A stretch of DNA of 64,000 nt, from the NCBI GenBank assembly GCA_943354745.1, contig CALRDB010000002.1:3679-67678 (forward strand), in the 5' to 3' direction. Of the stretch, positions 15,092 to 51,982 are shown in pieces; positions within the stretch are counted from its first letter, which is position 1, and each line of letters opens with the position of its first letter. The notes under the pieces were generated by a model. It saw nothing but the letters and a program-made list of their open reading frames with translations. It did not search any database and had not been told where the DNA came from. This DNA is from Candidatus Nomurabacteria bacterium (GTDB lineage Bacteria > Patescibacteriota > Minisyncoccia > Phycocordibacterales > UBA10002). The translations under genes and the position numbers were made by a program.

Positions 15092-15817
15092 CTAGTAGCG
15101 GGGGATCCCCACCTGCCCTGTCTCCATCACAATATCCCCAAGTGGCTTGTCCTGGTTAACGTAAATCAGTCCATCTTTGACGAGCTCTAGCAAAGCAAGA
15201 AAACCGACAATAACCGTAACTCGATCCCCTTTGTGTGCCCCCGAAAACTCATTGAAATTCATACGAAGCGCAGAGGTTATTCGACCTTTTAGGTTTTCAA
15301 TCATCTGTTCCAAACTAATTACTTTCTTGATAGCTACCTTTGAAAGAGCTTCTGTCTTTGGAATTGCCGACAACACAGAACGTATTGCACTTTGCATGAG
15401 CGAAAGAGATATTGACTTAGGGGGAGCGAATACGGGTACCACCTTCCGCTCGAGTGAACAAAAAAGAGGGTGCTCACCAAAGCGCTCTCTTACATGACGT
15501 GAAAGCTCACGGTATCGTTGCAAAAGTTTTAGCCGATTTTGTAAATCTTCAATATTTTCCTCCTCCTCACGAGAAAGGGAAAGTTGAGGCAGAAGGGCCT
15601 TTGACTTTATCAAAAGCAACGTGGAAGCAACGTAAGCAAATTGCGCACTTTCGGCAAGTGGAAAGTCGATAAAACTTTTCACATAATTAAGGAAGTCATC
15701 CGTTACTTTTGAAAGTGCTATGTCGCCAATATGAAGCTGTCTCCGTTCGATAAGTGTCAAAAGCAGATCCAAGGCTCCCTCAAATTTCTCCTGCTTTACA
15801 GTGAAGCTTTCCATCAC
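15092..15817 (-). CDS. scpA: Segregation and condensation protein A
   Basis: FEGALDLLLTLIERRQLHIGDIALSKVTDDFL typical ScpA N-terminus. Confidence 0.8.
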   Translation of the reverse strand: MMESFTVKQEKFEGALDLLLTLIERRQLHIGDIALSKVTDDFLNYVKSFIDFPLAESAQFAYVASTLLLIKSKALLPQLSLSREEEENIEDLQNRLKLLQRYRELSRHVRERFGEHPLFCSLERKVVPVFAPPKSISLSLMQSAIRSVLSAIPKTEALSKVAIKKVISLEQMIENLKGRITSALRMNFNEFSGAHKGDRVTVIVGFLALLELVKDGLIYVNQDKPLGDIVMETGQVGIPRY

Positions 15818-27256: not shown

Positions 27257-27400
27257 TATTAAAAATTAAAATCCTTCCGTCCAGGAAGAATTTGACATTG
27301 TATCTTCCCTCGCGGGCTAGATGGAGCACCGCGTTCTCACAAAACCGGTTGCCGGAGGATCCTTGAGCTAGTACTCTCCCCTCTCTCTTGATATATATTC
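27257..27400 (-). promoter_or_regulatory. SAM-I (S-box) riboswitch with intrinsic terminator in metK leader
   Basis: Minus-strand RNA AUCAAGAGAGAGGGGAGAGUACUAGCUCAAGGAUCCUCCGGCAACC…GGUGCUCCAUCUAGCCCGCGAGGGAAGAUA matches SAM-I conserved blocks (AUCAAGAGAGG, GGCAACC, GGUGC..A); hairpin CUUCCUGGACGGAAG followed by U-rich tract. Confidence 0.6.
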
Positions 27401-37079: not shown

Positions 37080-40016
37080 CTATGTACTACTTACTCTCTT
37101 GAGCTTGCACCACTCGCACTCAGCTTCATCGCAAAACTCGGTCATAATCCGGCCTGACCAGACTGAATCAATAAGCGACTGGATATCTTTCTTGAGCGTC
37201 TCAATATCAACATCGGTGATAGGAAGTGAGACGATACCGCACTTCCCTTTCTTATCGGGAATGACGAACACAAGAGATGGAACAATTTCCTTACCTTTAT
37301 ACTTCGGATCTCCGTGGAGAAGGTATTTGTAAAATGTGAGCTGTCTAAAATAACTACCATCGGAGGACTTAGTCTCTCCTTTAATCGCAGCAACCGTCAT
37401 TACCTCCTTAGTCTTATAGTCAAAGACGCGCACCGTATCTTCTATAACAAGAACCGCGTCGAGCTTGCCGTGAACGGGAATGGTCACAGCGTTCCCTTCA
37501 TACGTCCCCGAAAACTGTCCTTCACTCCAGCTTTCGGTGACCGCCTTCACTACTCCGAAATGGTTCTGCAGCTCGCGCGCGATTACGTTCGCCTCTTCAA
37601 ACAATTCCTTCTTCACCGCTTCTTTTTCGAAAATGGGAAGTAGTGAACGGCTAAGGTACGAAGAAACAGAATCTTTAAAAACATGTTCAATGTGTTCGAC
37701 GCTTCGGTCGGTATCCGCCCAGATATACGCAAACGCTTCGTGTACTGCAGTTCCTTTCTCCGCACTCGCTGCAGGAGCCTGAGGAATCTTGAGAATACTT
37801 TGATACACGAAAGAGCTTGGACACGTAAGAAAGTGGTTCAATGCGGTCACCGACAGTCCTTTTTCTAGCAAAATTGTTTTCGCAAGATCAACTATTTTTT
37901 CTCCTTTTCTATTTCGTACGTTCGTCTCTTGTTCGTAGTTCGTAGCAAGGGAAGGTGTCTCTACGATCGGCATGGGGGCAGAAATACGCTGTACACATTT
38001 TGGATCAAGCTCATCGATAAACCGTAATGGGGTTTCCACTTTCCCACCCGCTATTTCCTCTGGAACAAGGAGTACCGCATGTTTCTTTGCGCGAGTCAAG
38101 GCGACATAGAAGAGCCTCCGTGCGTCACGGGTTGCGTCTTCGTCATCTTTCGCTTTCTCTGGGAGTACGAAATACACGCCTCGTGCTCGGCCCATCCACG
38201 AACTTTCGGTCACAAAGGGGATAAAGACGTACTCAAACTCAAGTCCTTTGCTTCCATGAGCCGTCATTGCCCTCACCTGTAGCTCAGGAGAACCAACACT
38301 CACCTTCACGCTCCTCTCTTCCGCTGAGGCCTTATACGAGCGAAGCTTCCGAAGAAGTTCTTGGGTGTCCTGAATATCACCCTCTCGTATAAGATATTCA
38401 GCAAGTTCTGTAATACCGCGCCACACTTCCATAGCGGAAGGATCCCTGATGGCGAGTTTTACGAATCCCGATATTTCAGCTGCGAACATGATATAGGCAA
38501 GAGCTCCATCGCTCGACAGTTTATTTTGAAGATGACGAAGTGCGGGAATCTTTTCCACAACTCCTTGCCTACCGCTCCGCAATGCTCGAATACACTCTAC
38601 ACCTCCCTCAAACGGAAGATCCCAGAGTCCCACAGCGATAGTCTTCGCAAGCGCCTCAACGTTTGTCGTGTCCGATAGATATTCGATAAGGGTGAAAAAA
38701 AGATTTCCGATGGGGTGATTAAAGATGTTTACTTTCCGCTCAGAAGAAACAGGAACGTGCTTTGACTCTAAAAAACGAATCACTCGTTCAAGGTCGCGAT
38801 TTGTCTTGGTAATGATCGCCACCGTACTCCCGCTCTCTTGTGCAAGAATCTTCTGAATCTCTTGTGCAAGATATTCGAGCGTGGCGGATTCCTTCCCTCC
38901 AACAAGATCAATAGGCCGGACGGCTTCACTCCCCGACGCAGACAGCCGTATACGGAGATGTGTATTTTCTCCGTCTTCATAGTTATGTTCGATCATGGAA
39001 AATGCCCCATCGAGTAGATGTTGGTGTGATCGATAATTTTTCTCGAGTGCAATAATCTTCATATCCTTCCATGCATTTTTGAATGTACGGAAGTTTTCAA
39101 CCGATGCCCCCTGAAAGCGGTAGATCGCCTGTTTTTCATCTCCAACAACGAAGAGGTTTGGTGATGTAAAGAAATCAGCCAAAAGACGAATGAGCAGGTT
39201 CTGCGAATCGTTGGTGTCTTGATGTTCATCTACAAGCAGATAGAGAAACTTTTCCTGCAAAAGACGAAGGAGAAGCGTGTCTTTTTGAAGCGTGGTTAAT
39301 AGTTCTATAATGAGGTCGTCAAAGTCGATACGCCGTTCTTCCCTCTTTCGTTGTTCATATCCCGCATACACATCAGCAAACAACACTGTCCGTTCACACT
39401 TCTCGATCTGTTTTTCCGCATCTGCTTTTAGTTTCCCTTTCGTAGCGCCACGGGTTGACATAGATTCCGGATCAGCCTTGATGTGCTTGATCTGTTCTTT
39501 CGCAAACACGCGAATCATATCGGGTGAAAGTGCTTCGCGTTTGGCGTCGCTTATCGCACCAAGTATTTTCTGCACGTAAAAATCAGGATTACCAAAAGGA
39601 CGAAGTGATGAAAACGATTCATCCTTTAAAATTGAACGAATAAGACTTTCAGCATCGATATCGGTCATCTGTGTCGTTCTGTCCAATTGCGTGAAATGGT
39701 CTTTGTGCTCCGCGATAACAGACGCCGCAAATCCATGGAAAGTATGTAAATGCACTTCATCAGCACGCGACCCCATGAGTGCGCGAAGTTTCTGGCGCAT
39801 CGCCTTCACTCCCGCTTCGGTAAAGGTGATAGCCAAAATGCCCGATGGGGGCGTATCGGTCTTACGGAGAATCTGCGCGATACGAAGCGTCAGTACTGTC
39901 GTCTTCCCTGTCCCCGGCCCCGCTATGACCATGACAGGGCCGTCGATAGTATCGACAGCCTCCCTTTGTTTCGAGTTCAACTGCTTGTACTGAGCATTAA
40001 ATACATCTTCGGACAT
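37080..40016 (-). CDS. UvrD/PcrA/AddA-type ATP-dependent helicase fused to C-terminal PD-(D/E)xK nuclease with 4-Cys cluster
   Basis: Walker A AGPGTGKT; UvrD motifs; C-terminal HGKLDAVLVIEDTVRVFDYKT and CDEAECEWC; ORF-track start is GTG, ATG at MSEDVF. Confidence 0.8.
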   Translation of the reverse strand: MSEDVFNAQYKQLNSKQREAVDTIDGPVMVIAGPGTGKTTVLTLRIAQILRKTDTPPSGILAITFTEAGVKAMRQKLRALMGSRADEVHLHTFHGFAASVIAEHKDHFTQLDRTTQMTDIDAESLIRSILKDESFSSLRPFGNPDFYVQKILGAISDAKREALSPDMIRVFAKEQIKHIKADPESMSTRGATKGKLKADAEKQIEKCERTVLFADVYAGYEQRKREERRIDFDDLIIELLTTLQKDTLLLRLLQEKFLYLLVDEHQDTNDSQNLLIRLLADFFTSPNLFVVGDEKQAIYRFQGASVENFRTFKNAWKDMKIIALEKNYRSHQHLLDGAFSMIEHNYEDGENTHLRIRLSASGSEAVRPIDLVGGKESATLEYLAQEIQKILAQESGSTVAIITKTNRDLERVIRFLESKHVPVSSERKVNIFNHPIGNLFFTLIEYLSDTTNVEALAKTIAVGLWDLPFEGGVECIRALRSGRQGVVEKIPALRHLQNKLSSDGALAYIMFAAEISGFVKLAIRDPSAMEVWRGITELAEYLIREGDIQDTQELLRKLRSYKASAEERSVKVSVGSPELQVRAMTAHGSKGLEFEYVFIPFVTESSWMGRARGVYFVLPEKAKDDEDATRDARRLFYVALTRAKKHAVLLVPEEIAGGKVETPLRFIDELDPKCVQRISAPMPIVETPSLATNYEQETNVRNRKGEKIVDLAKTILLEKGLSVTALNHFLTCPSSFVYQSILKIPQAPAASAEKGTAVHEAFAYIWADTDRSVEHIEHVFKDSVSSYLSRSLLPIFEKEAVKKELFEEANVIARELQNHFGVVKAVTESWSEGQFSGTYEGNAVTIPVHGKLDAVLVIEDTVRVFDYKTKEVMTVAAIKGETKSSDGSYFRQLTFYKYLLHGDPKYKGKEIVPSLVFVIPDKKGKCGIVSLPITDVDIETLKKDIQSLIDSVWSGRIMTEFCDEAECEWCKLKRVSST

Positions 40017-40115
40017 GCACGTAGTATAGCAAATGCGAAAAAACCGGCTCTTCACCGGTTTTTTCTTATTCCGTGTCAGTTCCGCGTTGGCTTCGTTCTG
40101 TCTCGTTCCGTGATT

Positions 40116-41315
40116 TTAATAGCCCTGCAACTTTTTCGACTTCTTATGCTGGCGGATTTTTTCGTGAGCTTTCGCTTCGATTTGGCGGATACGTTCGCGA
40201 GTCACGCCGAATTTTTGTCCCACTTCTTCGAGTGTGTGCGTGACACCGTCGAGGAGGCCATGCCGAAGCTCTAGAATCTTTCGCTCTTTTTCTGAAAGGT
40301 CGCCGAGAATTTCCTTCACTTGGTCTCCGAGGATACGGCGGGACGATTCCTGGTCGGGAGAAAGTATCTTGTCATCATGTAAAAAGTCTCCGAGTGTTGA
40401 CTTGCCGTCGTCGCCCTCATCGCCGACTGGCGATTCCAGCGAAACGGTATCTTGGTCAATTTTTTCAATCTGGTACACCTTGTCCGTCTCAATACCCATC
40501 TCGATACCGATTTCTTCCGGAAGCGGGTCGCGGCCGAGATCTTGTGAAAGTCGTCTCACGACTTGCTTGTACTTAGCGATAGTCTCCACCATATGGACCG
40601 GCACGCGAATAGTGCGGGATTGATCGGCGAGTGCGCGAGTAATCGCTTGGCGGATCCACCACGTAGCATACGTTGAAAATTTATACCCCTTGGTCCAGTC
40701 GAATTTGTCGACAGCCTTAAAGAGACCTAAGTTCCCTTCTTGAATGAGATCGAGGAGTGTGAGGTCAGGCGAGCGTCCCACGTATTTTTTAGCAATCGAA
40801 ACAACCAAACGGAGGTTCGCTCGAGCAAGAAGATTTTTGGCTTCCATGTCTCCCGCCTGAATGCGCTTCGCGAGCTCTTTTTCGTCTTTGGCGTTGATGA
40901 GGGGGTATTGTCCGATTTCCTTGAGGTACATCTGAATCGAATCATAGGATCCTTCACTACTCTTGCCGAGGTAGACATTTTTCTTTCCATGCGGTTCCGC
41001 GACTTCTTTCTCAAGCATTCCACCACCTTCGAGTACGTCAATACCCGCTGTTTGGAATTTGGAGTAAAGTTCATCGAGGAACATGATGTCCTCTTCGATG
41101 GTAGGAAATTCTTTCAAAATGTCGTTATAGGTGATGAACCCGCGATTCTTACCCTTTGCGACAAGACGATCAGCACGTATATCACGCTCCTTACCTTTAG
41201 CCATTTTCTCGACAGGTTTTGATGCAACCTTACTCTTTATAGGCTTCTTTTTTGGAGCAACCTTTGCTTTAATGGCTTTTTTCTTCTTTTTGAGGTCTTT
41301 TTTCGCTTTTGACAT
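40116..41315 (-). CDS. rpoD: RNA polymerase sigma factor RpoD (sigma-70)
   Basis: Region 2 [17 protein letters not shown]…[10 protein letters not shown]; region 4; ORF-track start is TTG at 41387, ATG at 41315. Confidence 0.88.
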
Positions 41316-41387
41316 AGTGGCGATAGTATATCTTAAATAGCGGTAACTGCAACCGTCCGAACATACGAAGAAAAGAGTGGGTTCCAA

Positions 41388-42010
41388 AGAACCTGGGGCT
41401 GCTTAAAAAATGTAAGAAAAAAGCGACTTGAGATGCTACCCAAGTCGCTCGACACAATGCGGTACACTACTCGACCCGACCCAACTCCGCAAAACCATGA
41501 GTGACTAAACCGCAATCGCCAAACGCTCGCGAACGAGCGTTTGGCCCCAAGCAAAGGACGTGATACCGCACCGGACACCACTCAACACGACCGCGGATTG
41601 ACATAATTGCCATGCCTCCGTAAACGAAAGCACGGCCCCGTACCGTAGAACTCAGTGCAGAACAACTGGACACGAAGCCCGAGCCCACCATGCTGTGCCA
41701 TACCTAAATGTGTCAGCCGATTCGAAAATCGACTGACACCCGAACGCTACAAATGAACAGAGGACAAAACAAGACCCTGCAAAACAATACGGCAATCGCA
41801 CTCCAACCGAAGTCGGAGTGCTCCAAGCTGTAACGCTCCGGACCCTGCAACACTTGACGATACCGGACATGACCGCAGAATACACCACCGAAATAAACGG
41901 GAGGTGAAATCCACCTCCCGTTCCCAGACAGGACACAAACGTACAATGCATAACCCTACTGAACCTTACCGAACTGGACCGAAATATTCCGCACCTGCTT
42001 CCAAGTTTGG
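41388..42010. other. CA-skewed hairpin-dense noncoding block A
   Basis: + strand about 63% A+C; perfect hairpins e.g. ccaaacgctcgcgaacgagcgtttgg, cgggaggtgaaatccacctcccg, gtgtcagccgattcgaaaatcgactgacac; ORF track shows only short overlapping two-strand ORFs. Confidence 0.7.
41415..41450 (-). terminator. Rho-independent terminator (minus-strand sense) immediately upstream of rpoD
   Basis: + strand gaaaaaagcgacttgagatgctacccaagtcgc; minus strand gives 8-bp stem followed by U6. Confidence 0.6.
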
Positions 42011-42017
42011 ACCCGGA

Positions 42018-42659
42018 CTATTCACCTGCATATCCTTTCGGTTGCTCCGTCCACTGCCAGCTCACTGCCTCGAACTTCCCGTACGCGCCCCGTTGCTCGG
42101 CCGAGAAGAGACCTATCCCGATATCGCGCCCCGCACTGCCGACGAGCCTCTGGATAATCTTCTCATTAAGCGGCGCCGAGAATGAGATGAGCGCCTCACA
42201 TGACCAGTCGTCAAACTGGGGGCAACGAACGATGCCCATCTCGCGTGAGTTCGGCCTCGCGTGACGATTGCGGGAGTACACACTCCAACCGGAAGTGCTC
42301 GAGAGTATGAGATATCCTCCGATGATGCAGTATTGACTCACCTGATCCACGAAGTGGCCACTATGCCTATCCTGATACGGCCATGCCGCCATGCGAACCG
42401 CGTGCTTCAGCCACCTGCCTGGCACCGCGATACACCCACTGCGAGTGTCGCGGACAAGCAAGTCAGCTAAAGGTTGCTTTGAGATCTTGATGATCTGTTC
42501 ACGCCTGGTATGGTCCGTTATCGGATGCATAAGAAGCGGTGTGACTCCCCGTAGGTGAACGAGGAGGTATTTCTTTGATATCGGTGCCGGTAGCTTCATA
42601 ACGGAGCTCCGAACCGCGTTGGGAACTGGCATTTCTGCCATAACTGTTTTTGTGTTCAT
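42018..42659 (-). CDS. Hypothetical protein (orphan ORF embedded in noncoding island)
   Basis: 213-aa ORF with normal base composition flanked by CA-skewed DNA; no recognised domain. Confidence 0.45.
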   Translation of the reverse strand: MNTKTVMAEMPVPNAVRSSVMKLPAPISKKYLLVHLRGVTPLLMHPITDHTRREQIIKISKQPLADLLVRDTRSGCIAVPGRWLKHAVRMAAWPYQDRHSGHFVDQVSQYCIIGGYLILSSTSGWSVYSRNRHARPNSREMGIVRCPQFDDWSCEALISFSAPLNEKIIQRLVGSAGRDIGIGLFSAEQRGAYGKFEAVSWQWTEQPKGYAGE

Positions 42660-43639
42660 AAATCAATGATCTGTCCAAAACCAACATGCAGAATAACACG
42701 TTTATATAAATACGTCAACTTTCGTATAAAAAGGCGCCATCCGAAGCCGGACAGCGCCATATGATCCAAACACCGGCGAGCATTGCAACGCGATACTATT
42801 CAGAACGCTAACTAACACAAGAGCAATTTCCCGCTCCGATGTAGCATCGGAGCGGGACCCGCAACAGAAGTAACCGCACTCCGGAATACCTTGCGATACA
42901 GAGCCTAGCCCCGCCGGACCGAAATTGCCACCCGTCTTCGAAAAAACGGGTGGCCACGGACCGTACCCGGTTCTACCCGACAGGACATTAGAGTACACAA
43001 CAAGAACCAACACCACCAGAATTTCCTGCCAGCCGTAACCGGCTGACAGGACCCGGACGCTACTCGAGAGTTCAGGACAGGACCTGACTGGACAGAAACG
43101 CGCGTAACCGTAATTCCAGGCCTCTGCGTGCAGAGACCTGGTCCGTGCAAAACAGCGGAATGCACTGGCGGACAGAACAGTATCGAACCGAACCGTACTA
43201 TAGGCTAACAGGAACTTAATTCCCCAAACTCCCTCATCGAGAGTTTGGGTCCGAGCTTCACGGGACATTGCGACACGATGCGACTGCTAGACGCATCTTT
43301 CCAGAAATTCCTATCCTCCCGAGAGAGGTAGGATCCGAACAAAAAAATCTTCTGACGCACAAGACCAGACCTGACTGTAACTGAGACGGCACAAACGCAA
43401 CTGTCGAGTCCTTGTAGTAAGGACTCGACCCTGACCATGCACAACTCCACAACGCCAGACCGAACGGGACAGGGACTAAGCATACTTTTGCGCAATTTCC
43501 TGTCCGTTCTAACGAATGAACAGGACCCACACTCAACCTCACCCAACAGAACATTTGAGAGCGACGACGCAGAATACCTTACCATAGTGAACAGTTACGC
43601 CGAAGCGTACCTGCTGTTTTTCAATGCTCAAATGCTAAC

Positions 43640-43702
43640 TGCAAAGTAACACGAAAATCTATTTTAGGCAAGAAAAAGGCGTCCCGAACGAATCGAGACG
43701 CC
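43640..43702 (-). promoter_or_regulatory. Terminator (43672-43702) plus conserved 20-nt motif TGCAAAGTAACACGAAAAT (43640-43658), module copy 1
   Basis: Minus strand: GGCGUCUCGAUUCGUUCGGGACGCC-UUUUUCUU followed by UAGAUUUUCGUGUUACUUUGCA. Confidence 0.55.
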
Positions 43703-45276
43703 AGCCATAAAGAAGACAAGCCCTGGGCACGGTGCGGAACAATACCTCACCGAGCATAACCTTAATTTGAGTGCTCCGACACATCGAAGCACTCACCCTA
43801 CCGCGGACTTGCATACGAGAAGAAACCCAACCTTGCTAGTGAGTACCGAACCCAAAAGAACCACTGTGTGCGACACCGTATCTACCGATGCCTGGCAAGG
43901 CAGGCATCGGTCCTACACCCTACCGCTCTCTACCCCATGGTACCTAACACCACTGAACACTACATCATCGAAACGAAGTCTGAACGCCGATTGAGAATCG
44001 GCGTTCACCCGTACCGAACCATACCTTGCAACAATCCACAGAACTGAAACGCGCAGCAGATGACAGGACCGAAATTTGTCGTCCCGATTTGTTCATCGGG
44101 ACGACATCCGTACTCTGCGACACCGGTCATTACCTGACAGGTGCACACGCTACGTTACAGGACCATAATGTGCTATCTCGATGAAGCATCGAGATAGCAT
44201 CCGCACCACTATTGGCCGGACAATAAGATACTCTGCAACACCCGAGAATTGAGATCCATAATTTCACCGTCCCAATAGTACATCGGGACGGTGACCCAAC
44301 AAAACCATACCTGACAGGACACCGCGATACTGCAGAACACAGGAGAGGACACTGACTTACCGTAACTTCCCAGACCCTCGCAAGCGAAGGTCTGGGACCC
44401 AACCATACCGGATAACGCCGGACAACGCGCCACTCTACTACACCTGAACGCAATCGCCCATCCCGATCTTAATCGGAATGGGCTCCGAGAAAAACCGTAC
44501 CGTAGAATACACTGCCTTAACACACGAAACGGTGACATACGGAACCGCATTATTCTGCTTCAACCGAAGTCAAAGCAGAACCCACACCGGACATGAATTC
44601 ACCGTACAACACCCTACCCCACTTAAGATGACAAGAGAGCGATAGGTCGCCCTGACCGAAACCAGAGCAACCCCCTACAGAACAGCGCATCGCCACAGGA
44701 TTGCACGCGCTACATAACCAAGCCGGAGCGCAAAGGCTGTCCCGATCGAAATCGGGACGGTCCCGAAGCAAACGGCACGTTTGCGCACACTTGATTACAG
44801 AACTTGAATGCAACATGCTGAACTGAGGCACTGCGTATATACCGCTCCGACCGAAGTCGAAGCGGCTTCGCACGCTACGCTACCGTGCGGGACACAAACA
44901 GACGTTACACCACTCTACGTAACCGCGATACATCACGCGCTCACTGAGCGCGTGATGCCCCCCGCCGCACCAAGCGACACTAAACCCCGACGGACAGAGG
45001 CTATCCTGAACGTGCCACAACTGTCATGCACCGTGAGATGCATGACATCAGCGACAAGCATTACCAGGCCTGACAGAGACACGCCTTGCAGTACGTTTCC
45101 TAGCCTGACCTAATCCTGCGAAACCAGAATTTACCACCCCGACCAGAGTCGGGGTGGTACCCGAGGAAAGCATTAGCTGACCTGACATAAAGACGGAAAG
45201 CCCCACCTATGCTTACTGGGCCGAACGCTACCAAATTTAACTCATTTTCAGTTGACAATGAGCTACTAACGAATTT

Positions 45277-45356
45277 CAAAGTAACACGAAAATAGAGATA
45301 ACGCAAGATTCGCAATCCTGCAAGAAAAAAGGCGTTTTGAGAAAACTCAAGACGCC
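45277..45356 (-). promoter_or_regulatory. Terminator (45325-45356) plus conserved motif CAAAGTAACACGAAAAT (45277-45293), module copy 2; terminates helicase gene
   Basis: Minus strand: GGCGUCUUGAGUUUUCUCAAAACGCC-UUUUUUCUU then …CUAUUUUCGUGUUACUUUG. Confidence 0.55.
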
Positions 45357-45378
45357 GTCGATTGACCTGCAATGGAGA

Positions 45379-47214
45379 TTACTTTCCAAACATCCGCTTC
45401 ACCTCCGCTACCGCCTCGGCGAAGCTTTTGCCACCGTCGTAGTATTGGCGAAGCCCTTCAGAGAGCCGTGGCCAAACGATCTTCCGAAACTGCTGTGAGA
45501 TAAATATGATAGCCCCTTTATCCTTCGGACTCCGAATGTTCCGCCCCATGTGCTGAAGTGACTTGATCCCCACGCGCCATTGTTCAAGTTTGAAATGAGT
45601 GCTTTCACCCCACTTCCTCACCTCGAACACACTTGCTGGATCATCCGGCCTGCTGTATCCAGGACGAAGATCGAAGATGACCGGCGCGAGGCCGTCAGGA
45701 AGATCGAGCCCTTGCCCGAAGTTCGTTTCCGTACCGACCAGAGTCATACCGAGACCATCTTTGAACTCCTGCGCGGCAGTCCGAGCCATTCGTTCACCGC
45801 CATAGCTCACAGTGTCGAGACCCAGATTCGTCGAGTGAACCAAGAATTGATCACGCTCATCGTTTGAGACGACAATGACCAGACTCCGAATCCCCATGTC
45901 CGCCCACTCCTTGCACGCCTTGACCATGCTCTTGAGCGCTTTCTTCAGATCATCGGGCTTCCGGTTCTTCGTTGAGAGGTCCGGCGTATCGGACGGCATG
46001 AAGATCTTGGCGTTCTGTGGAGGAAAGCTTGACGGAAGCGAGAGAAACTCTCCTTCTTCCATTCCGGTTTCCCAACCGAACGTGTCTTTATCCCCGACAG
46101 TAGCCGAGAAGGCCGCGTACTCTTCGCCCAGTATTGAGCGGATGATAGGCGCCACTGTGTGTGCCTTAATCACCAGCTTATGCTGAACGCGCTTACCCTC
46201 CGCGAGTTCCTGCTGATGAAAGGCGTAGCTGTAGTTCATCCTTTTCCGTTTCAACGTGTCGAGCGAATACTCGAACGAGTGAATGTACCGGCGGATATCC
46301 CGCACCAGCACCTCCACTTGGCGAAGTGTTAGGGCCTCTTCCACTTCATCGACGGCCCCTTCACCTATTGCTTTGATGAGCTTATCTCCCAGCCTCGCCG
46401 GATTAATCGCTTCAAGCAGACCCATGAGCTCGAGGATTTCTCCATCCTCAATGATGGTCGGCTTCCACGCAGCCTTCTTCTTAACGATGTCAATCATGCG
46501 TTTCTGAAACTTCGCGAGAAGATCCGTCTCATCGACCTCAAGTCTCTCGAGTAGTTTGACGGCTCGACCGAGGTGATAGTCACTAATCTCGTAAGAGAGC
46601 GTGCGACGAACCACGTCGCCCATTAGGTGCGCTTCGTCAATGACGAGCACCTTCGGCTTCTCCCACCGCTTCGTGAAAAGCTGAGAGAAGAGATAATACG
46701 CAAAGGTGCAGAGCACGATTGGCGCGTTCATAGCCTTGTGGGTGAAGTGATAGTACTGACAGCGCTCCGCGTCCTTCTCGTGCGTCTCCCCCGTTTTGAG
46801 GTTGACGCGATGCGGACAGTTCCGCAGGAAAGAGCAGGCGATTTCATCCGCGCGATATTGAACATCTTCCGGCTTGGTCTCAAGCGAGAATCGTTCATCC
46901 GCGTTGTCCTCGTAGTAGTAGCACGGGAAATCATGTTTACCCACCACGATGGCGAGGTCGAGATATTCCCGATAAATCTGCTGGAGGATGGTCTTGTTCG
47001 GCGTGATGAGAAACAGCGGTTTCTTGCCCGCGTTTGCCGCGGCCTTCAGAATGGCATACTCGACGGCAGTCTTGCCGTGGCCGGTCGGCATCTCAATGAT
47101 GGACTTCGGATGCTGTGCCCAGAATTCGAGAACCTGCCGCTGTTGCGGGCGCATAACGCTGTGCTTCTCTGACGGAAATGCCGAACAGAGTTCGGCAAAG
47201 GTTTGTCTGCTCAT
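45379..47214 (-). CDS. DinG/XPD (Rad3)-family ATP-dependent DNA helicase with Fe-S domain
   Basis: Walker A EMPTGHGKT, DEAH box VIDEAHLM, four Cys between motifs I and II; ORF-track start TTG at 47256, ATG at 47214. Confidence 0.75.
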   Translation of the reverse strand: MSRQTFAELCSAFPSEKHSVMRPQQRQVLEFWAQHPKSIIEMPTGHGKTAVEYAILKAAANAGKKPLFLITPNKTILQQIYREYLDLAIVVGKHDFPCYYYEDNADERFSLETKPEDVQYRADEIACSFLRNCPHRVNLKTGETHEKDAERCQYYHFTHKAMNAPIVLCTFAYYLFSQLFTKRWEKPKVLVIDEAHLMGDVVRRTLSYEISDYHLGRAVKLLERLEVDETDLLAKFQKRMIDIVKKKAAWKPTIIEDGEILELMGLLEAINPARLGDKLIKAIGEGAVDEVEEALTLRQVEVLVRDIRRYIHSFEYSLDTLKRKRMNYSYAFHQQELAEGKRVQHKLVIKAHTVAPIIRSILGEEYAAFSATVGDKDTFGWETGMEEGEFLSLPSSFPPQNAKIFMPSDTPDLSTKNRKPDDLKKALKSMVKACKEWADMGIRSLVIVVSNDERDQFLVHSTNLGLDTVSYGGERMARTAAQEFKDGLGMTLVGTETNFGQGLDLPDGLAPVIFDLRPGYSRPDDPASVFEVRKWGESTHFKLEQWRVGIKSLQHMGRNIRSPKDKGAIIFISQQFRKIVWPRLSEGLRQYYDGGKSFAEAVAEVKRMFGK

Positions 47215-47356
47215 AATCAGTCTTCGGATGTTTGATGTTTGGTGTTCCCTTGTCAAAATCCACTCCCGAAGGAGTGAACTGGAGTCTTAGCCCCGTGCTA
47301 ATCCTCGACGCACACTAACAGGATTTCTCGTCTACGTCAAGGTTTGGTTACGGGTC

Positions 47357-47385
47357 TGTCATTCCCTTGGAAAAGGGAATTCAGT
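47357..47385 (+). repeat. Hairpin repeat family copy f
   Basis: ctgtcattcccttggaaaagggaattcagtg. Confidence 0.65.
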
Positions 47386-48380
47386 GCTGTAGTCCAAATA
47401 TAAAAAGCGCCTCGACGAATCGAGACGCTTATTCCTGACCCAACAAAAGAGCACCTCACATTGGATGAGAATACCCGAACTGACAATACCCGACCGAGAA
47501 GGACCAAAATTGAAGCGTTCCCGAAAACGAGAACGCTTCCCCGCACAGGACACTACCTGACTGCACTGAAACCAACCACTCCGAAATTGAAGCGTCCCGA
47601 CGAATCGAGACGCCTCATCCGGACTCGAGCATTCACAAACGAACAGGACGGAACCTGACTGAACGACGCCGCATGCCACCTCAATCGGCATTCCGCTTTA
47701 GAAACGGAATACCCCCGTACCTTACCTTTGAAATGAGAGGCAAAATTCGAGCATCCCGACTAATTCTCGGGATGCTCGCCTGACAAAGGTGTACCATGAT
47801 TGAGCGAGCCGGCGAAAACCGACTCGCTCCCGAACAGAACTCTACGTCACGCCTCCGAAACAAACGACTGCCTACGGGGCGATACAAAACAGGTGCATAC
47901 GAAGACTTGCCGTAATTGCCGAACACCTTCGAAAAGGCGCTCGGCTCCACACCGAACCTGTTCTCGCAGGACACTACAACAGAAATGTTGGCTTGAGCTA
48001 ACTCATGCAAGCCACACGGCACATCTGATGACCTCAACTGAGCGAGCCGGCCGAAACCGACTCACCCCCGAACGTAAACAGACAGCTCTGCACGGGACAA
48101 TAGCGCACCCAACCTAAACCGACACCACCTGACCATAATTACCAAGCTCCTACGAACAAGAGCTTGGTTCCCGAGCGTACCAAGAAGCGCGAAACAGAAC
48201 AGTTGACTGCGAAACATGACTTTAGAGAACCACAATTGTCGAATCCGTGCTCGCACGGATTCGACCCGAGGAATGACTCAAACAAACATACTGGACTGAA
48301 CGGAACTTTACACTTGTGTGCCCCAAAATAGGTGACCGCAATCACTGCGACAACGAATTGTCGAAGTACGAAATACCGAG

Positions 48381-48432
48381 TGCAAAGTAACACAGAAATA
48401 TAAAAACGGCAAGTCTCGTGAAAGACCTGCCG
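48381..48432 (-). promoter_or_regulatory. Terminator (48403-48432) plus conserved motif TGCAAAGTAACACAGAAAT (48381-48399), module copy 3
   Basis: Minus strand: GGCAGGUCUUUCACGAGACUUGCC-GUUUUUAUAUUUCUGUGUUACUUUGCA. Confidence 0.55.
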
Positions 48433-49135
48433 TATGACTACATTACCTGACCTTACCCTACCCAACCGTACCTTGCCTCAAAGAACAAGACCTAACCGTG
48501 CCACATTCTCCCGCCCCTCTTGCGAATGGCGGGACCCGTGCCATAATCGACCTTACTGAACCTTACCTAAGAGGAACCGGCGGAAGAATCCTCTGCCGAA
48601 ACTTGACGAGCACTTTCGGAAAAGTGCTCGTCCCATGCTGCAGTTCAGATTACTACGCGTCACCTGACCGCGCGAGACGCTACGTTACCGCACTGTAGCG
48701 AGCCGATTGTTATCGGCCCGCTCCCGAACAAAACCCGACACCACGTTAGCCCGCAGAACTGAACCAAGCTTGAGCGTATTAGTGGACAGCTCCGCTAGGA
48801 GCTGTCCAACCGATACCTTTTCATAACGCACTGAACAGTGGATTACAAAACGGGACACTGCACCACCGGACCGTAATCAGTATCCCGACTTTCAGCGGGA
48901 TACTCCGGTACCGAACAGGACAGGGCCATACTTAGGAACACTCAAAATGAGCACACCTGACTTGACCGTACCGCAATTGCCAAACTTCTGCGAACAGAGG
49001 TTTGGCTCCACACAGCGCCTGTGTTCACAGGACTACAGGGTACAAAACCTGACGATTGAGTACGACAGGATACGAGACCGAAATGGTCGGCGGAAATGCT
49101 TTTCCGCCGACACCGACAACAGACTGAACTCTGTC

Positions 49136-49167
49136 AAAAAAAAGCGGAGGTACCGAAGCACCTCCAC
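49136..49167 (-). terminator. Strong rho-independent terminator (minus sense) after hypothetical gene
   Basis: Minus strand GCGGAGGUGCUUCGGUACCUCCGC followed by U8. Confidence 0.7.
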
Positions 49168-49188
49168 ATGACTGTCACTTCTTCGTCG

Positions 49189-50010
49189 TTACTCGGTAGC
49201 TACCGGAGCCGGACTGAGTCCCGCCACGCGTTTTTCGAGAACCTTACTCGACATTCGGCCGTTGTCCTCCGTCTTCGGAGCATGCTTCTCAGCCTGGCCG
49301 ACGTACTTGATTTCAATGTCGTCATTGATCGGTTCGATCTTGATTACTTCGAACTTCGAAACACGAAACTGTCCGTAGGAACCGGGCTTGTTTGGGGCCG
49401 AACCGCGCCAGTCGCCGAGACCGGATTTTTCGCCGGCCTTCTGCCAGAGCTGGAGCACGGTGTCGTCAGAGAAGTCAGGGTCCTTGAAGGTGAACTCAAT
49501 CTCGCACGCCCACTTCGGAATTAAAGGGCGGACCGTACGATTGGACCCCTTGGTCTGTTGGTTGACGGTACGACCCGCGTGAACTTCCCACGGAGTGTTC
49601 GCTTTCGCCTCCTCCTCCCCCATCGGCAACGCCTCGGTCGCAACTTCCCCGTTCGCATCGAGCCCCTTGAAGGCATAGAAGCGTTTGGTGAAGGTCACGA
49701 TGCTGGGGATTTCGGTTCCGCCACCTGACTTGGTGATGGCCGACGTGCGCTTCCCTTTCTTGACGGAGATGTGCTTCCCGCCGTTACAGAGGGTGGCCAT
49801 GAGGTTGTCCATTGGCCAGCCCATTTCACCGTTCGGTCCGCGATAGAGCTTGGCCTGAGCAACCACAACATCTTGGATGTCGCCGCGCTTGGGCGTTGCC
49901 GCTTTTTTGCCGCCGATCTCTTCAAGTGTACCGAGAAGCATGGGGTTTTGGATTGCTGCGGTTACTGAATCCAGTAACATCCGCACTGTCTTCTGCTGTC
50001 TTTCTGCCAT
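49189..50010 (-). CDS. Hypothetical protein (273 aa)
   Basis: Long ORF with balanced composition directly downstream of dnaG; no recognised family. Confidence 0.5.
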   Translation of the reverse strand: MAERQQKTVRMLLDSVTAAIQNPMLLGTLEEIGGKKAATPKRGDIQDVVVAQAKLYRGPNGEMGWPMDNLMATLCNGGKHISVKKGKRTSAITKSGGGTEIPSIVTFTKRFYAFKGLDANGEVATEALPMGEEEAKANTPWEVHAGRTVNQQTKGSNRTVRPLIPKWACEIEFTFKDPDFSDDTVLQLWQKAGEKSGLGDWRGSAPNKPGSYGQFRVSKFEVIKIEPINDDIEIKYVGQAEKHAPKTEDNGRMSSKVLEKRVAGLSPAPVATE

Positions 50011-50116
50011 AATTACCCTTACTTAATGCACCGAATCGCCGAAGCGAGCCGGTTTTGTTATGTAGTTGTCGAAGAGCTATAGATTCGGGCCGAAAAGCCT
50101 TGTCTGTAAGCCCTTG

Positions 50117-50137
50117 TTCACAGTGTGTGAACAGTGC
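50117..50137. promoter_or_regulatory. Palindromic candidate operator TGTTCACA-gtg-TGTGAACA upstream of the 273-aa hypothetical gene
   Basis: Perfect 8-bp inverted repeat with 3-nt spacer about 110 nt upstream of start codon. Confidence 0.3.
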
Positions 50138-50227
50138 CAAAAGCACACGCGATTAGCTCGACCAAACTAACAGAGATACGAAATTTTGTCAATAGTACGT
50201 AGTAAAGCAGGGTACCGTGTAAACGAG

Positions 50228-51982
50228 TTAAGAAGTCGTAGTAAACCGGTGGGATTTGAGGGCTCCCAATTTTTGGGTGAGTTCTTTACACTTTGCCAGC
50301 AGGGCTTGCGTCTCTTCTTTATTCCCGTCGTGCTCTGATTTGGCCAGTGTGTCCATTGTCTCAGAAAGAAGCATCGTAATATGCTCTTGTTCCAAATGAC
50401 GAAGAAGCTCCTCTTCCTCACTTACACCGGGCGAGGTATCCCCGTAGAGCGCTTCGGCTTCAAGCAAGAGAACATCAGCAAGTGCTTTATAGTGCTCTAC
50501 TTTTTTATCGAATACCTCCTTTTCAAAGATGCGGAGAAGTGCAGTCTGTAACCGCTCGAACAACAACGTATTCTTCTGCGACTCCGAAAGAAGATAAATA
50601 CTAAACACCCTCCGTTCAAGTGTATTCGAACGAACCGGTGCGGTAGCTTTACGTAATTCAGGTATTTCTTTTTCTCCAGCGACAGCCGGTACTTTTTTAA
50701 ACGCCTCCCAGAGCGCATCTTCCCGAAGACCGCTTTTCTCGGCGATTACTTTTATAAAATGGGATTGCTCAACAGGAGAAGTGAGAAGGCGGAGAAGCGG
50801 AAGTAGCGTCTTCTCAATCGCGAGCGCACGTTCCCTTCCCTCCTTGGAAGCATTGATAAGGTTAAGAAGAAGAAAATCAATAACGTGCTTTGATTCTGTT
50901 ACCGCCCTGTCCCATTCCTTTGGCTCCTTCAAAATAAGTTCAGCGGGATCTTTGCCTCCCCCGATCGCAATAACCTTCACATTCATACCAAGGGCGAGCG
51001 CCAGTTTTATCGCACGCTCGCTTGCTCGCACACCCGCACTATCCGCATCAAACGAAAGCAAGAGATTTTCGGACAGTCTTTTCAGACGCACAAGTTGTTG
51101 TTCGGTGAGTGCTGTCCCCGAAGATGCGACAGCATTCTCATGACCAGCTTGATGCACCATAAGAAGGTCCACTTGTCCTTCAACCAGTATCGCCGCGTCC
51201 TTTTGTCGTATCACGAGTTTCGCGCGGTCAAATCCATACAGGACTTCGGACTTATTGAAGAGCACGGTCTCGGGGCTGTTGATATATTTGCCTGTCTTTC
51301 CATCATCAAGTCTGGGGAGAATACGTCCTGAAAATGCGATAACTCGTCCCGCACTATCCCGAATCGGAAACATAATCCTCCCCCGGAAAGTATCATAGTA
51401 TTTCTTAGGACCTGACCCTGTGTGCCCTACAGAATCGGTTTGGTTGGCAATTTTAATCAAGCCGACCTTTCCCATTTCTTCCGGTGTAAATTTTTCCCGA
51501 GTGAGATAGTCGAATAGTTGCCTCCACTCCGCGGGGGCAAATCCTACTCGCCAGTCTTGTAGCGTTTTTTGGGTGAGACCTCTTCCGTCTATGTACACCT
51601 TCGCTTCAGCTGTAGCCCGCAATGTTTCTTCATAAAATCTCGTCGCTTTTTCGAGACAGAGATACAACCGTGCGTATTCGCTCTGTACCTTTGGATCAAG
51701 CTTAGTCAGGGTGACTCCCGCACGTTGCGCGAGCACCCGTAAAGCACCAATAAAGTCGAGTCCTTCAAACTCCTGCACGAACGTGAAAATATCCCCCTTT
51801 GCCTGACACCCGAAACAGTAATAGGAGTTGCGAGCAGGCGAGACAAAGAACGACGGCGACTTCTCATTGTGGAATGGGCATTTAGCCTTATAGGAAGTTC
51901 CTGCACGCTCAAGCTTTAGGTACGATCCAACCACATCGGCGATACCTAATCTTTCTTTAATTTGTTCAACCGGAGTGGACAT
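50228..51982 (-). CDS. dnaG: DNA primase
   Basis: Zinc-ribbon CPFHNEKSPSF…CFGC; TOPRIM domain; 584 aa. Confidence 0.9.
   Translation of the reverse strand: MSTPVEQIKERLGIADVVGSYLKLERAGTSYKAKCPFHNEKSPSFFVSPARNSYYCFGCQAKGDIFTFVQEFEGLDFIGALRVLAQRAGVTLTKLDPKVQSEYARLYLCLEKATRFYEETLRATAEAKVYIDGRGLTQKTLQDWRVGFAPAEWRQLFDYLTREKFTPEEMGKVGLIKIANQTDSVGHTGSGPKKYYDTFRGRIMFPIRDSAGRVIAFSGRILPRLDDGKTGKYINSPETVLFNKSEVLYGFDRAKLVIRQKDAAILVEGQVDLLMVHQAGHENAVASSGTALTEQQLVRLKRLSENLLLSFDADSAGVRASERAIKLALALGMNVKVIAIGGGKDPAELILKEPKEWDRAVTESKHVIDFLLLNLINASKEGRERALAIEKTLLPLLRLLTSPVEQSHFIKVIAEKSGLREDALWEAFKKVPAVAGEKEIPELRKATAPVRSNTLERRVFSIYLLSESQKNTLLFERLQTALLRIFEKEVFDKKVEHYKALADVLLLEAEALYGDTSPGVSEEEELLRHLEQEHITMLLSETMDTLAKSEHDGNKEETQALLAKCKELTQKLGALKSHRFTTTS

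What the first reader, a model, noticed from the sequence alone, without database searches (positions are those of the whole stretch)
43640..45356. Candidate ~1.6-kb structured noncoding transcription unit bounded by a terminator/motif module at each end
Read on the minus strand, the helicase gene ends at 45379. Next comes a rho-independent terminator (45325-45356), then the conserved sequence CUAUUUUCGUGUUACUUUG (45277-45293). There follows 1.6 kb with no ORF but continuous hairpins, then another terminator (43672-43702) directly followed by the same conserved 20-mer (43640-43658). This looks like promoter-proximal motif → long GU-rich structured RNA → terminator, i.e. a dedicated large ncRNA gene.
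Basis: inference. Interest (0 to 1): 0.8.

Follow-up and report, generated by a model that had tools for sequence, protein, structure and literature searches.

The report
VIPR guide-RNA array, not one RNA
The 1.6-kb "structured RNA gene" is one of five tandem arrays, about 49 units of ~95 nt in all, that look like guide RNAs (vrRNAs) of a VIPR system, a CRISPR-like RNA-guided DNA-recognition system first described in 2026; here it sits in a bacterial chromosome with two RAMP proteins and a helicase.

Summary
On the minus strand, 45277-43672 is a promoter-to-terminator unit with no credible ORF. It is G+U-rich and holds 16 strong hairpins.

It is not one large structured RNA. It is a tandem array of ~95-nt modules: AAUU, then 11-18 pentamers NN(G/U)GY, then a 12-bp hairpin whose sequence differs in every copy. 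Four more such arrays lie at 49135-47405 and 43642-41415, about 49 units in total.

The flanking unannotated ORFs (49189-50010 and 42018-42599) belong to the Vipr RAMP family. A family profile hits PDB 36pp "SUSP1 Vipr protein" at E 9e-17, and the ORF-B model matches Cas7 folds. The helicase between them is an XPD/DinG-type enzyme with four invariant cysteines.

This matches VIPR systems (bioRxiv 10.64898/2026.04.26.720920). In those, Vipr polymerises on GGY/NN pentamer repeats and the variable NN bases read double-stranded DNA with a 1-nt skip.

Features I could not find in the accessible text of the papers:
- two diverged Vipr paralogs conserved together in five lineages
- a relaxed YNNNG repeat
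- hairpin tails of variable sequence
- a cellular home in candidate-phyla-radiation-like genomes

No target was found. Verdict: a new member of a recently described kind.

The parts
50164..50192 (-). Promoter-like site for vipr-A (TTGACA-N14-TGT-TAGTTT)
   Evidence: one of only 6 matches to TTG-N17-TGTTANTNT in the 64 kb (0.12 expected by chance). The pattern was derived from these sites.
49189..50010 (-). vipr-A (ORF-A, 273 aa): Vipr-family RAMP with a canonical G-loop GLGDWR and thumb RTVRP
   Evidence: No Pfam, NCBIfam or PADLOC match; matches phrog_4652. The family profile hits PDB 36pp_D 'SUSP1 Vipr protein' at E 8.8e-17. Key residues are aligned. An exhaustive HMM search finds 1223 relatives.
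49136..49167 (-). Intrinsic terminator after vipr-A
   Evidence: 10-bp stem followed by U8.
48406..49135 (-). vrRNA array a (~8 units). The last hairpin, 48433-48406, doubles as a terminator.
   Evidence: Covariance-model hits, hairpins, 5-nt periodicity.
48384..48412 (-). Promoter-like site for array b. Its -35 hexamer TTGCCG is the 3' arm of the preceding terminator.
   Evidence: The same terminator/promoter module is conserved in L002, L003 and L007.
47405..48383 (-). vrRNA array b (leader hairpin plus ~10 units; terminator hairpin 47430-47405)
47312..47340 (-). Promoter-like site for the helicase gene
45379..47214 (-). Accessory XPD/DinG-family SF2 helicase (the probable vap gene). It has a PTGHGKT Walker A motif, a DEAH box and four invariant Cys residues, a putative 4Fe-4S site.
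   Evidence: Pfam ResIII, DEAD, Helicase_C_2 and DEAD_2. PADLOC typeIV_DinG profile PDLC01439 at E 1e-41 over the full length. NCBIfam Csf4 scores only 24.9 bits against a cut-off of 400. The best PDB match is XPD at E 1e-6. The Cys residues are conserved in 4 lineages.
45325..45356 (-).
   Evidence: Sequence: 11-pair stem with one mismatch, then U6.
45278..45306 (-). Promoter-like site for array c (TTGCGT-N14-TGT-TACTTT).
43672..45277 (-). vrRNA array c, which is the finding. It has a leader hairpin at 45265-45238 and then 16 units. Each unit is (A)AUU, 11-18 NN(G/U)GY pentamers and a ~12-bp hairpin. The last hairpin, 43702-43678, plus a U-run forms the terminator.
43643..43671 (-). Promoter-like site for array d (TTGCCT-N14-TGT-TACTTT).
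42728..43642 (-). vrRNA array d (~9 units; terminator hairpin 42758-42733). The mechanical ORFs 42702-43268 and 43205-43585 lie inside it and are judged spurious.
   Evidence: Neither ORF has a Pfam match. The region shows 5-nt periodicity.
42690..42718 (-). Promoter-like site for vipr-B and array e (TTGACG-17-TATTCT, with an upstream TG)
42018..42599 (-). vipr-B (ORF-B, ~193 aa from Met21): a second, diverged Vipr/RAMP paralog. Its G-loop reads GIGLFS in place of GxGD(W/F)R. The thumb R-P and the beta-1 His are kept.
   Evidence: BLASTP against ORF-A gives E 2e-4. The family profile hits SUSP1 Vipr at E 0.005 as its best hit. The AlphaFold model has pLDDT 88. Foldseek matches Cas7, Csm3, type VII Cas7 and type IV-A3 Cas7 at E 2e-8, probability 1.0. 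Residues are aligned and the G-loop census is.
41415..42017 (-). vrRNA array e (6 units). No terminator separates it from vipr-B, so it is probably co-transcribed. The terminator hairpin is at 41450-41421.

Best explanation
The region is a tandem array of VIPR guide RNAs (vrRNAs). It is one of five arrays in a ~9-kb chromosomal VIPR locus inserted between dnaG and rpoD.

Shown by the sequence:
- Each array lies on the minus strand, and arrays b, c and d each have a promoter-like site of their own. Array a has none and probably depends on read-through from vipr-A; array e follows vipr-B with no terminator between them and is probably co-transcribed from its promoter.
- Each array ends at an intrinsic terminator.
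- Each array consists of ~95-nt units: an (A)AUU handle, 11-18 pentamers NN(G/U)GY, and a ~12-bp stem-loop tail.

- Protomers of the canonical paralog Vipr-A polymerise along each pentamer tract, one protomer per repeat.
- They flip out the conserved G-Y bases and present the variable bases.
- The variable bases read a double-stranded DNA target through gapped pairing.
- The bound filament blocks transcription and/or recruits the XPD/DinG-type helicase as an effector.

My own inference:
- The hairpin plus AAUU marks the unit boundary, as a processing site or a filament stop.
- Vipr-B, which has lost the nearly universal G-loop D-(W/F)-R residues, is a specialised subunit that caps the filament, binds the tail or processes the RNA.
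For: Protein side:
- The ORF-A family profile hits PDB 36pp 'SUSP1 Vipr protein' at E 8.8e-17 as its only hit. The ORF-B family profile hits the same entry at E 0.005.
- The ORF-B model (pLDDT 88) matches Cas7-type RAMPs at E 2e-8.
- The thumb R-P, a Trp and the G-loop glycines are invariant across SUSP1 Vipr, ORF-A and ORF-B.

RNA side:
- Autocorrelation of G-Y is 0.17-0.31 at lags 5, 10 and 15, in the arrays only. In the whole 64 kb, periodic segments coincide exactly with the arrays.
- Pentamer logo: positions 1-2 variable (all 16 dinucleotides are used), position 3 is G 40% / U 33%, position 4 is G 74%, position 5 is Y 87%.
- Most linker lengths fall in a series 5 nt apart (58, 63/64, 68/69, 73, 88).
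- There are 27 runs of at least 5 YNNNG repeats, all on the minus strand inside the arrays.
- The covariance-model search finds 45 full-length tail hits, all on the minus strand and all inside the arrays. All 12 stem pairs covary, with 4-6 pair types each.

Context:
- The order vipr-A, array, [helicase, array], vipr-B, array is conserved in five lineages set in different genomic neighbourhoods.

Literature:
- vrRNAs are ~100 nt, made of 9-16 YNNGG repeats plus a structured 3' tail. Variant repeats NNNGG, YNNNG and NNNNG exist, and some VIPR types carry helicases (10.64898/2026.04.26.720920).
- The filament and gapped-triplex mechanism comes from 10.64898/2026.04.26.720927.
Against: - There are no expression or processing data for this locus.
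- No DNA target was found under the NNx rule or other rules. Searched: the window and the fetched loci, six IMG/VR scans (with as the extension check) and one metagenome scan.
- The strict YNNGG criterion of at least 4 tandem repeats is met at only 3 places. The first G of GGY is only 40% G, so the decoding rule may differ from the SUSP1 rule.
- Single-sequence similarity of ORF-A to SUSP1 Vipr is weak (E 0.03). The ORF-A structure model is poor (pLDDT 51).
- The tails vary in sequence, whereas the SUSP1-clade tail is described as invariable.
Confidence: 0.88

Rival explanations
1. A single large (~1.6 kb) structured non-coding RNA, in the manner of OLE, GOLLD or ROOL, acts as one folded molecule.
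For: There is a dedicated promoter and terminator, no ORF, a G+U-rich strand and many stable hairpins.
Against: - The unit is strictly modular: 16 repeats of ~95 nt with the same local architecture. The only recurrent structure is the local 12-bp hairpin.
- Four further arrays of different lengths (0.6-1.0 kb) use the same module.
- There is no Rfam match even at E<=10.
- The linkers are pentamer tracts of the kind bound by the adjacent Vipr-family proteins.
Confidence: 0.04
2. A degenerate or atypical CRISPR array of a type IV-like CRISPR-Cas system. The hairpins would be the repeats and the linkers the spacers, served by a DinG helicase and Cas7-like proteins.
For: The helicase's best PADLOC match is a typeIV_DinG profile (E 1e-41). 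ORF-B folds like Cas7, including type IV-A3 Cas7. Hairpins are regularly spaced.
Against: - The 'repeats' share no sequence: Tandem Repeats Finder finds nothing and every stem differs.
- The 'spacers' are ~65 nt, compositionally biased (61% G+U) and 5-nt periodic, so they cannot be captured foreign DNA.
- No Cas-family match was found for any of the ten ORFs scanned around the locus; other ORFs in the window were not scanned.
- NCBIfam Csf4 scores 24.9 bits against a cut-off of 400.
Confidence: 0.03
3. The arrays are transcribed and bound by Vipr proteins, but they do not guide DNA recognition. They could be a protein-sequestering or scaffold RNA, or a decoy for phage-encoded VIPR proteins, rather than a set of guides.
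For: No target was found. The first G of GGY is degenerate. The number of units is very large for a VIPR locus. The tails differ from the described type.
Against: The variable positions use all 16 dinucleotides with no copy alike, as expected for information-bearing guides. The target searches had low power: exact matches only, for 4 of ~49 vrRNAs. A DNA helicase is conserved in the locus.
Confidence: 0.05

Closest known systems
VIPR systems (Viral Interference Programmable Repeat), type II exemplars from phage SUSP1 and P. fulva prophage; bioRxiv 10.64898/2026.04.26.720920 and 10.64898/2026.04.26.720927
   Same: - A small RAMP protein (Vipr) with thumb R-P and a glycine-rich loop.
- ~100-nt RNAs built of tandem pentamers, with conserved G-Y and hypervariable NN, ending in a structured 3' tail.
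- RNAs arrayed in the intergenic DNA that flanks vipr.
- No CRISPR repeats and no adaptation genes.
   Different: - The repeat here is the relaxed NN(G/U)GY (YNNNG-type), not strict YNNGG.
- The tail is a simple 12-bp hairpin whose sequence differs in every unit, followed by AAUU. The SUSP1-clade tail is an invariable pseudoknotted sequence.
- There are ~49 units in five arrays, against about 4.
- There are two diverged Vipr paralogs.
- The accessory gene is a helicase rather than a DNA-binding Vap1.
- The locus is chromosomal, in genomes related to the candidate phyla radiation, and this subtype is absent from IMG/VR.
Helicase- or nuclease-associated VIPR types III-V (same preprint)
   Same: An accessory enzyme gene, occurrence in cellular genomes, and alternative repeat consensus sequences are all reported for the non-type-II systems.
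   Different: I could not see Fig. 5A or data S4, so the type is not assigned. The text says types III and V are the only types with nucleases, which by elimination makes type IV the likely helicase type (inference). The text gives 670 Vipr proteins for 667 systems, so two-Vipr loci are at most rare.
Type IV-A CRISPR-Cas (Csf2/Cas7 filament plus CasDinG/Csf4)
   Same: A Cas7-like RAMP backbone on a guide RNA is combined with a DinG-family helicase, and the system works by interference without cleavage. The helicase's best PADLOC hit is a typeIV_DinG profile, and the ORF-B fold matches type IV-A3 Cas7.
   Different: There is no CRISPR array, and no Cas6/Csf5, Csf1 or Csf3 match among the ORFs scanned. 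The helicase fails the NCBIfam Csf4 cut-off. It keeps four conserved Cys residues typical of FeS-containing XPD/DinG helicases, whereas CasDinG is reported to have only a vestigial FeS domain (from memory, not checked here).
TIGR-Tas systems (PMC12045711)
   Same: Tandem arrays of short guide RNAs that are not CRISPR, found in phages and parasitic bacteria; guide information is split into segments.
   Different: TIGR units are 36 nt with conserved repeats and are bound by a Nop-domain Tas protein. Here there is no Nop domain, the units are ~95 nt, and the proteins are RAMPs.

Membership tests
VIPR system | A Vipr protein (minimal RAMP with RRM core, thumb and G-loop) is encoded in the locus | tested here: met
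   The ORF-A family profile hits SUSP1 Vipr (PDB 36pp) at E 8.8e-17. The ORF-B family profile hits it at E 0.005. The ORF-B model matches Cas7 folds at E 2e-8. Thumb R-P, a Trp and the G-loop Gly residues are invariant.
VIPR system | The RNA is composed of tandem pentanucleotide repeats with a conserved GGY (or related consensus) alternating with hypervariable NN, 9-16 or more repeats per RNA | tested here: met
   5-nt periodicity is confined to the arrays. Logo: NN variable, then G/U, G 74%, Y 87%; 11-18 pentamers per unit. The variant YNNNG consensus is met (27 runs of at least 5 repeats). Strict YNNGG with at least 4 repeats is met at only 3 sites. The paper lists YNNNG as an accepted variant.
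VIPR system | The repeat tract is capped by a 3' tail of conserved secondary structure, giving units of ~100 nt | tested here: met
   The covariance model finds 45 stem-loop tails about 95 nt apart. There are 43 hairpins of at least 10 bp, against 0.1-0.3 per array in shuffles. All 12 pairs covary. The alignment for one search was chosen from perfect 12-bp hairpins, so the 100% pairing is partly by construction.
VIPR system | The locus lacks CRISPR repeats and adaptation genes, and vipr is flanked by long non-coding regions | tested here: met
   Tandem Repeats Finder finds no direct-repeat array. No Cas1 or Cas2 match among the ten ORFs scanned around the locus. About 5.3 kb of the ~9-kb locus is non-coding.
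VIPR system | vrRNAs are expressed as discrete small RNAs that co-purify with Vipr | not testable with these tools
   Only promoter-like and terminator-like sites can be shown.
VIPR system | The variable NN positions match natural DNA targets under the 1-nt-skip rule | tested here: inconclusive
   Nothing above background in the window or loci under 7 rules. Four 20-base NNx patterns gave 0 hits in IMG/VR. One 16-base pattern gave 25 hits, the number expected by chance, and none extended. One metagenome scan gave 0 hits. One NNNx pattern gave 0 hits. Power was low: exact matches only, 4 of ~49 guides.
VIPR system | An accessory vap gene with a predicted DNA-related function | tested here: met
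   An XPD/DinG-type helicase lies between the two vipr genes in 4 of 5 lineages.
Type IV CRISPR-Cas | A CRISPR array of near-identical direct repeats with unique spacers | tested here: not met
   No direct repeats. The stems differ in every copy. The linkers are periodic and compositionally biased.
Type IV CRISPR-Cas | A Csf4/CasDinG helicase by curated model | tested here: not met
   NCBIfam TIGR03117 cas_csf4 scores 24.9 bits against a cut-off of 400, although PADLOC profile PDLC01439 (typeIV_DinG) matches at E 1e-41.
Known large bacterial ncRNAs in Rfam (OLE, GOLLD, ROOL, raiA, HEARO and others), and hammerhead-interspersed VIPR arrays | A match to a curated covariance model | tested here: not met
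   No Rfam family at gathering score anywhere in the locus. None at E<=10 in 41200-45500.

The most novel reading that the evidence does not exclude
This may be a domesticated, chromosomal, three-gene VIPR in which the RAMP has duplicated and divided its labour.

- Vipr-A keeps the canonical D-W-R G-loop and would form the guide-presenting filament.
- Vipr-B has lost the otherwise almost universal G-loop Asp and Arg (it reads LFS). It would cap the filament, or recognise or process the hairpin-AAUU boundary, in the manner of Cas5 or Cas6.
- An FeS XPD/DinG-type helicase would serve as the effector.

That would make it a living intermediate between single-protein VIPR and multi-subunit class 1 effectors, especially the DinG-linked type IV. 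It would use a relaxed NNN-G-Y code that may read three bases per repeat.
Probability: 0.25. Interest if true: 0.8.

Novelty: new member of a known kind. Interest (0 to 1): 0.5.

Why it matters
VIPR was described only in 2026, and it is proposed as the ancestor of the CRISPR RAMP effectors. This locus is a large, cleanly delimited natural example.

- It has about 49 putative guides in five arrays, and six promoter-like sites share one locus-specific motif.
- It sits in a cellular genome, probably of the candidate phyla radiation, rather than in a phage.
- It combines features relevant to the proposed VIPR-to-CRISPR path: two diverged RAMP paralogs that always occur together, and a DinG/XPD-type helicase.
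- Its relaxed repeat (only G-Y fixed) and its hairpin tails of variable sequence offer a natural test of how the code and the unit boundaries are read.

For annotation, it shows that long 'hairpin-rich non-coding' regions next to small unannotated proteins can be recognised by 5-nt G-Y periodicity.

Tried and rejected
- Rfam at gathering score over the whole window and at E<=10 over 41200-45500: nothing in the locus.
- Tandem Repeats Finder: no array, because the units are too divergent.
- Pfam, NCBIfam and PADLOC for the two small ORFs: nothing. Only phrog_4652, of unknown function, matched.
- Word-indexed protein searches found very few relatives. The exhaustive HMM search was needed.
- The ORF-A structure model was poor (pLDDT 51) and was not used for fold search.
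- A protein-coding reading of the internal ORFs (188, 126 and 101-113 aa) was rejected: no family match, and 5-nt rather than 3-nt periodicity.
- A CRISPR reading was rejected (see the rival explanations).
- A DNA-level palindrome (REP-like) reading was rejected. Many stem pairs are G.U, so only 17 of the 43 hairpins survive on the other strand. The flanking motifs and pentamers are also strand-specific.
- Target searches found nothing: seven pairing rules against the window and loci, six IMG/VR pattern scans and one metagenome scan.
- The VIPR type (I-VII) could not be assigned. Only figure legends are held, not the figures or data tables.
- The organism name could not be obtained. The closest named relatives are Candidatus Taylorbacteria genomes assembled from metagenomes.
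Full report
OBSERVATION

On the minus strand the helicase ORF ends at 45379. An intrinsic terminator follows at 45356-45325. Its stem is GGCGTCTTGAG / CTCAAAACGCC with one mismatch, followed by U6.

The 17-nt sequence AUUUUCGUGUUACUUUG lies at 45293-45277 and recurs exactly at 43658-43642. The second copy sits just after another terminator, a hairpin at 43702-43678 with a U-run to 43672.

Between the two lie 1.6 kb with no credible ORF. The 101-113-aa mechanical ORFs have no Pfam match. The region is 61% G+U. It holds 15 hairpins of at least 10 contiguous pairs, against a mean of 0.29 and a maximum of 2 in dinucleotide-preserving shuffles.

The hairpins are spaced about 95 nt apart and share a local frame:
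- a GG(G/A) just before a ~12-bp stem
- a loop that is usually a tetraloop, often UUCG
- (A)AUUnnGGU just after the stem

The stems themselves differ in every copy. On an ungapped alignment of 24 units, all 12 stem pairs show double changes, with 4-6 pair types per position. The covariation score is 1.35 against 0.27 in shuffles and about 0.2 for slid partners. One caveat applies: those units were chosen for having perfect stems, so the 100% pairing is partly by construction. The unbiased evidence is the shuffle test.

Folded as plus-strand RNA, only 17 of the 43 hairpins survive, because many pairs are G.U. A covariance model of the tail with its flanks (R1), run without filters, finds 45 full-length hits at E<0.05 in 41300-49300. 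All are on the minus strand and all lie in the arrays. The plus strand gives only weak, stem-only hits.

The structure extends far beyond the finding:
- array a: 49135-48406
- array b: 48383-47405
- array c: 45277-43672 (the finding, 16 units)
- array d: 43642-42728
- array e: 42017-41415

That is about 49 units in total.

THE LINKERS ARE PENTAMER TRACTS

G-Y autocorrelation is 0.17-0.31 at lags 5, 10 and 15 in the arrays. Neighbouring coding sequences show only lag-3 signal. A sliding scan of the whole 64 kb finds 5-nt-periodic segments only at 49200-47401, 45400-42601 and 42200-41201.

Most linker lengths fall in a series 5 nt apart: 58, 63/64, 68/69, 73, 88. In register from the hairpin, the pentamer composition is:
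- positions 1-2: variable, with all 16 dinucleotides used
- position 3: G 40% / U 33%
- position 4: G 74%
- position 5: Y 87%

The first pentamer after AAUU is NNGGY in 92% of units. The last pentamer is NNGG followed by a purine. There are 11-18 pentamers per unit.

Runs of at least 5 YNNNG repeats number 27. All are on the minus strand inside the arrays. Strict YNNGG with at least 4 repeats occurs only 3 times.

THE PROTEINS

Two unannotated ORFs bracket the arrays: ORF-A (49189-50010, 273 aa) and ORF-B (42018-42599, about 193 aa). Neither has a Pfam, NCBIfam or PADLOC match. Both hit phrog_4652, and they resemble each other in the C-terminal part (E 2e-4).

An exhaustive profile search shows that ORF-A belongs to a large family: 1223 clusters at E<=1e-3. 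A profile of 73 members hits a single PDB entry, 36pp 'SUSP1 Vipr protein', at E 8.8e-17 over nearly the full length. The ORF-B family profile hits the same entry as its top hit, at E 0.005.

The ORF-B AlphaFold model (pLDDT 88, pTM 0.84) matches Cas7-type RAMPs at Foldseek E 2e-8 and below, probability 1.0. The matches include Csm3, type VII Cas7 and type IV-A3 Cas7.

THE LITERATURE

Two 2026 preprints describe VIPR systems: 10.64898/2026.04.26.720920 and 10.64898/2026.04.26.720927.
- Vipr is a minimal RAMP.
- vrRNAs are ~100 nt and consist of 9-16 (up to 30) YNNGG repeats plus a structured 3' tail.
- Vipr protomers polymerise one per repeat and sequester GGY. G1 is bound by H17 and D177, G2 by R138 and W178, and Y3 by R179.
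- The NN bases pair with double-stranded DNA, skipping every third base.
- There are seven types. They include variant repeats (NNNGG, YNNNG, NNNNG), staggered and ribozyme-interspersed arrays, and accessory helicases or nucleases.

The window's locus fits this description point by point.

KEY RESIDUES

The thumb R-P and a Trp are invariant in SUSP1 Vipr, ORF-A and ORF-B.
- ORF-A keeps the G-loop D-W-R but has Asn in place of H17. That fits the relaxed first G of its repeats (inference).
- ORF-B keeps the His, but its G-loop reads L-F-S. Among 162 family members, the Arg at the third position is almost universal and L-F-S occurs only in the ORF-B clade.

THE HELICASE

The helicase at 45379-47214 is an XPD/DinG-family SF2 enzyme. 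Its best PADLOC match is a typeIV_DinG profile at E 1e-41. It fails the NCBIfam Csf4 model, scoring 24.9 bits against a cut-off of 400. Four Cys residues between the Walker A and DEAH motifs are invariant in four lineages, which suggests a 4Fe-4S domain.

TRANSCRIPTION UNITS

The pattern TTG-N17-TGTTANTNT has exactly six matches in the 64 kb, against 0.12 expected by chance. All six are on the minus strand, at the heads of vipr-A, array b, the helicase, array c, array d and vipr-B. The pattern was derived from these sites, so what is informative is its absence elsewhere.

Arrays a to e each end in an intrinsic terminator. Array e follows vipr-B with no terminator between them. A compound module, in which the 3' arm of the terminator (CTTGCCG) serves as the -35 of the next promoter, is conserved in three other lineages.

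COMPARATIVE CONTEXT

The order vipr-A, array, [helicase, array], vipr-B, array recurs in several places:
- L002/L036, a 189-kb JGI contig
- L007
- L037 (GCA_030649255.1)
- Candidatus Taylorbacteria contigs L003-L006, L008 and L035, which lack the helicase

The neighbours differ each time. Here the locus splits the usual dnaG-rpoD pair. These loci also have 5-nt-periodic, hairpin-rich flanks, with AUUnnnGGU after the hairpins. The subtype was not found in IMG/VR. It is rare in the GTDB representative genomes (2 loci) and in JGI metagenomes (2 loci).

TARGETS

Target searches found nothing beyond chance. Power was low: exact matches only, and 4 of ~49 guides tested.

CONCLUSION

The finding is a real non-coding transcription unit, but it is an array of 16 putative VIPR guide RNAs rather than one large ncRNA.

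Shown here:
- the sequence architecture
- strand specificity
- periodicity
- covarying tails
- Vipr/RAMP homology
- conserved synteny

Inferred by homology:
- filament assembly on the pentamers
- gapped DNA reading
- the helicase acting as effector

My own inferences:
- processing or filament stop at the hairpin-AAUU boundary
- a specialised capping or processing role for Vipr-B
- a possibly altered NNN-G-Y code

Noticed in passing
window 42690-50192, minus strand (six sites): A promoter-like motif, TTG-N17-TGTTANTNT, occurs only at the six transcription-unit heads of the VIPR locus and nowhere else in the 64 kb. This suggests locus-specific, coordinated transcription. The pattern was derived from these sites.
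   Followed up: partly
window 48406-48433/48384-48412; L002 11598-11623, 12391-12418, 12614-12642, ~15560-15590 (TTGCCG at 15581); L003 6985-7013; L007 5829-5854: A compound terminator/promoter module is conserved in sequence across lineages whose proteins are only ~45% identical. The stem is ...CGGCAAG...CTTGCCG followed by a U-run. Its 3' arm supplies the -35 hexamer TTGCCG of the next promoter.
   Followed up: partly
L001 (GCA_943350625.1 contig CALRAK010000009.1): A public assembly of the same organism breaks about 800 bp after vipr-A, inside the first array. The arrays probably fragment short-read assemblies and so hide such loci.
   Followed up: no
window 50228-51982 (dnaG) and 40116-41387 (rpoD): The ~9-kb VIPR locus sits between dnaG and rpoD, which are normally adjacent. 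In the other lineages the same locus has unrelated neighbours (M29 peptidase, ProRS, MOSC, RF-2). It therefore behaves as a movable island, although no integrase is adjacent here. L003 has a serine recombinase about 3.5 kb upstream.
   Followed up: partly
window 42702-43268 and 43205-43585, minus strand: Mechanical ORFs of 188 and 126 aa lie entirely inside array d. They have no family match and 5-nt periodicity. They are likely to be mis-called as genes by annotation pipelines; short 'genes' of 58-98 aa are called inside the arrays of L002, L003, L007 and L037.
   Followed up: yes
window 27297-27397, minus strand: A SAM riboswitch (RF00162, 45 bits, just above its gathering score) lies upstream of the ORF at 26116-27171.
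   Followed up: no
window 47675-47839, minus strand: Three tail hairpins lie unusually close together, with linkers of only 23 and 34 nt (4-6 pentamers). These may be truncated or decaying vrRNA units.
   Followed up: no
window 37080-40055, minus strand: A UvrD-type helicase fused to a PD-(D/E)XK nuclease (AddA-like, 991 aa) lies directly downstream of rpoD. It is probably unrelated to the VIPR locus.
   Followed up: no
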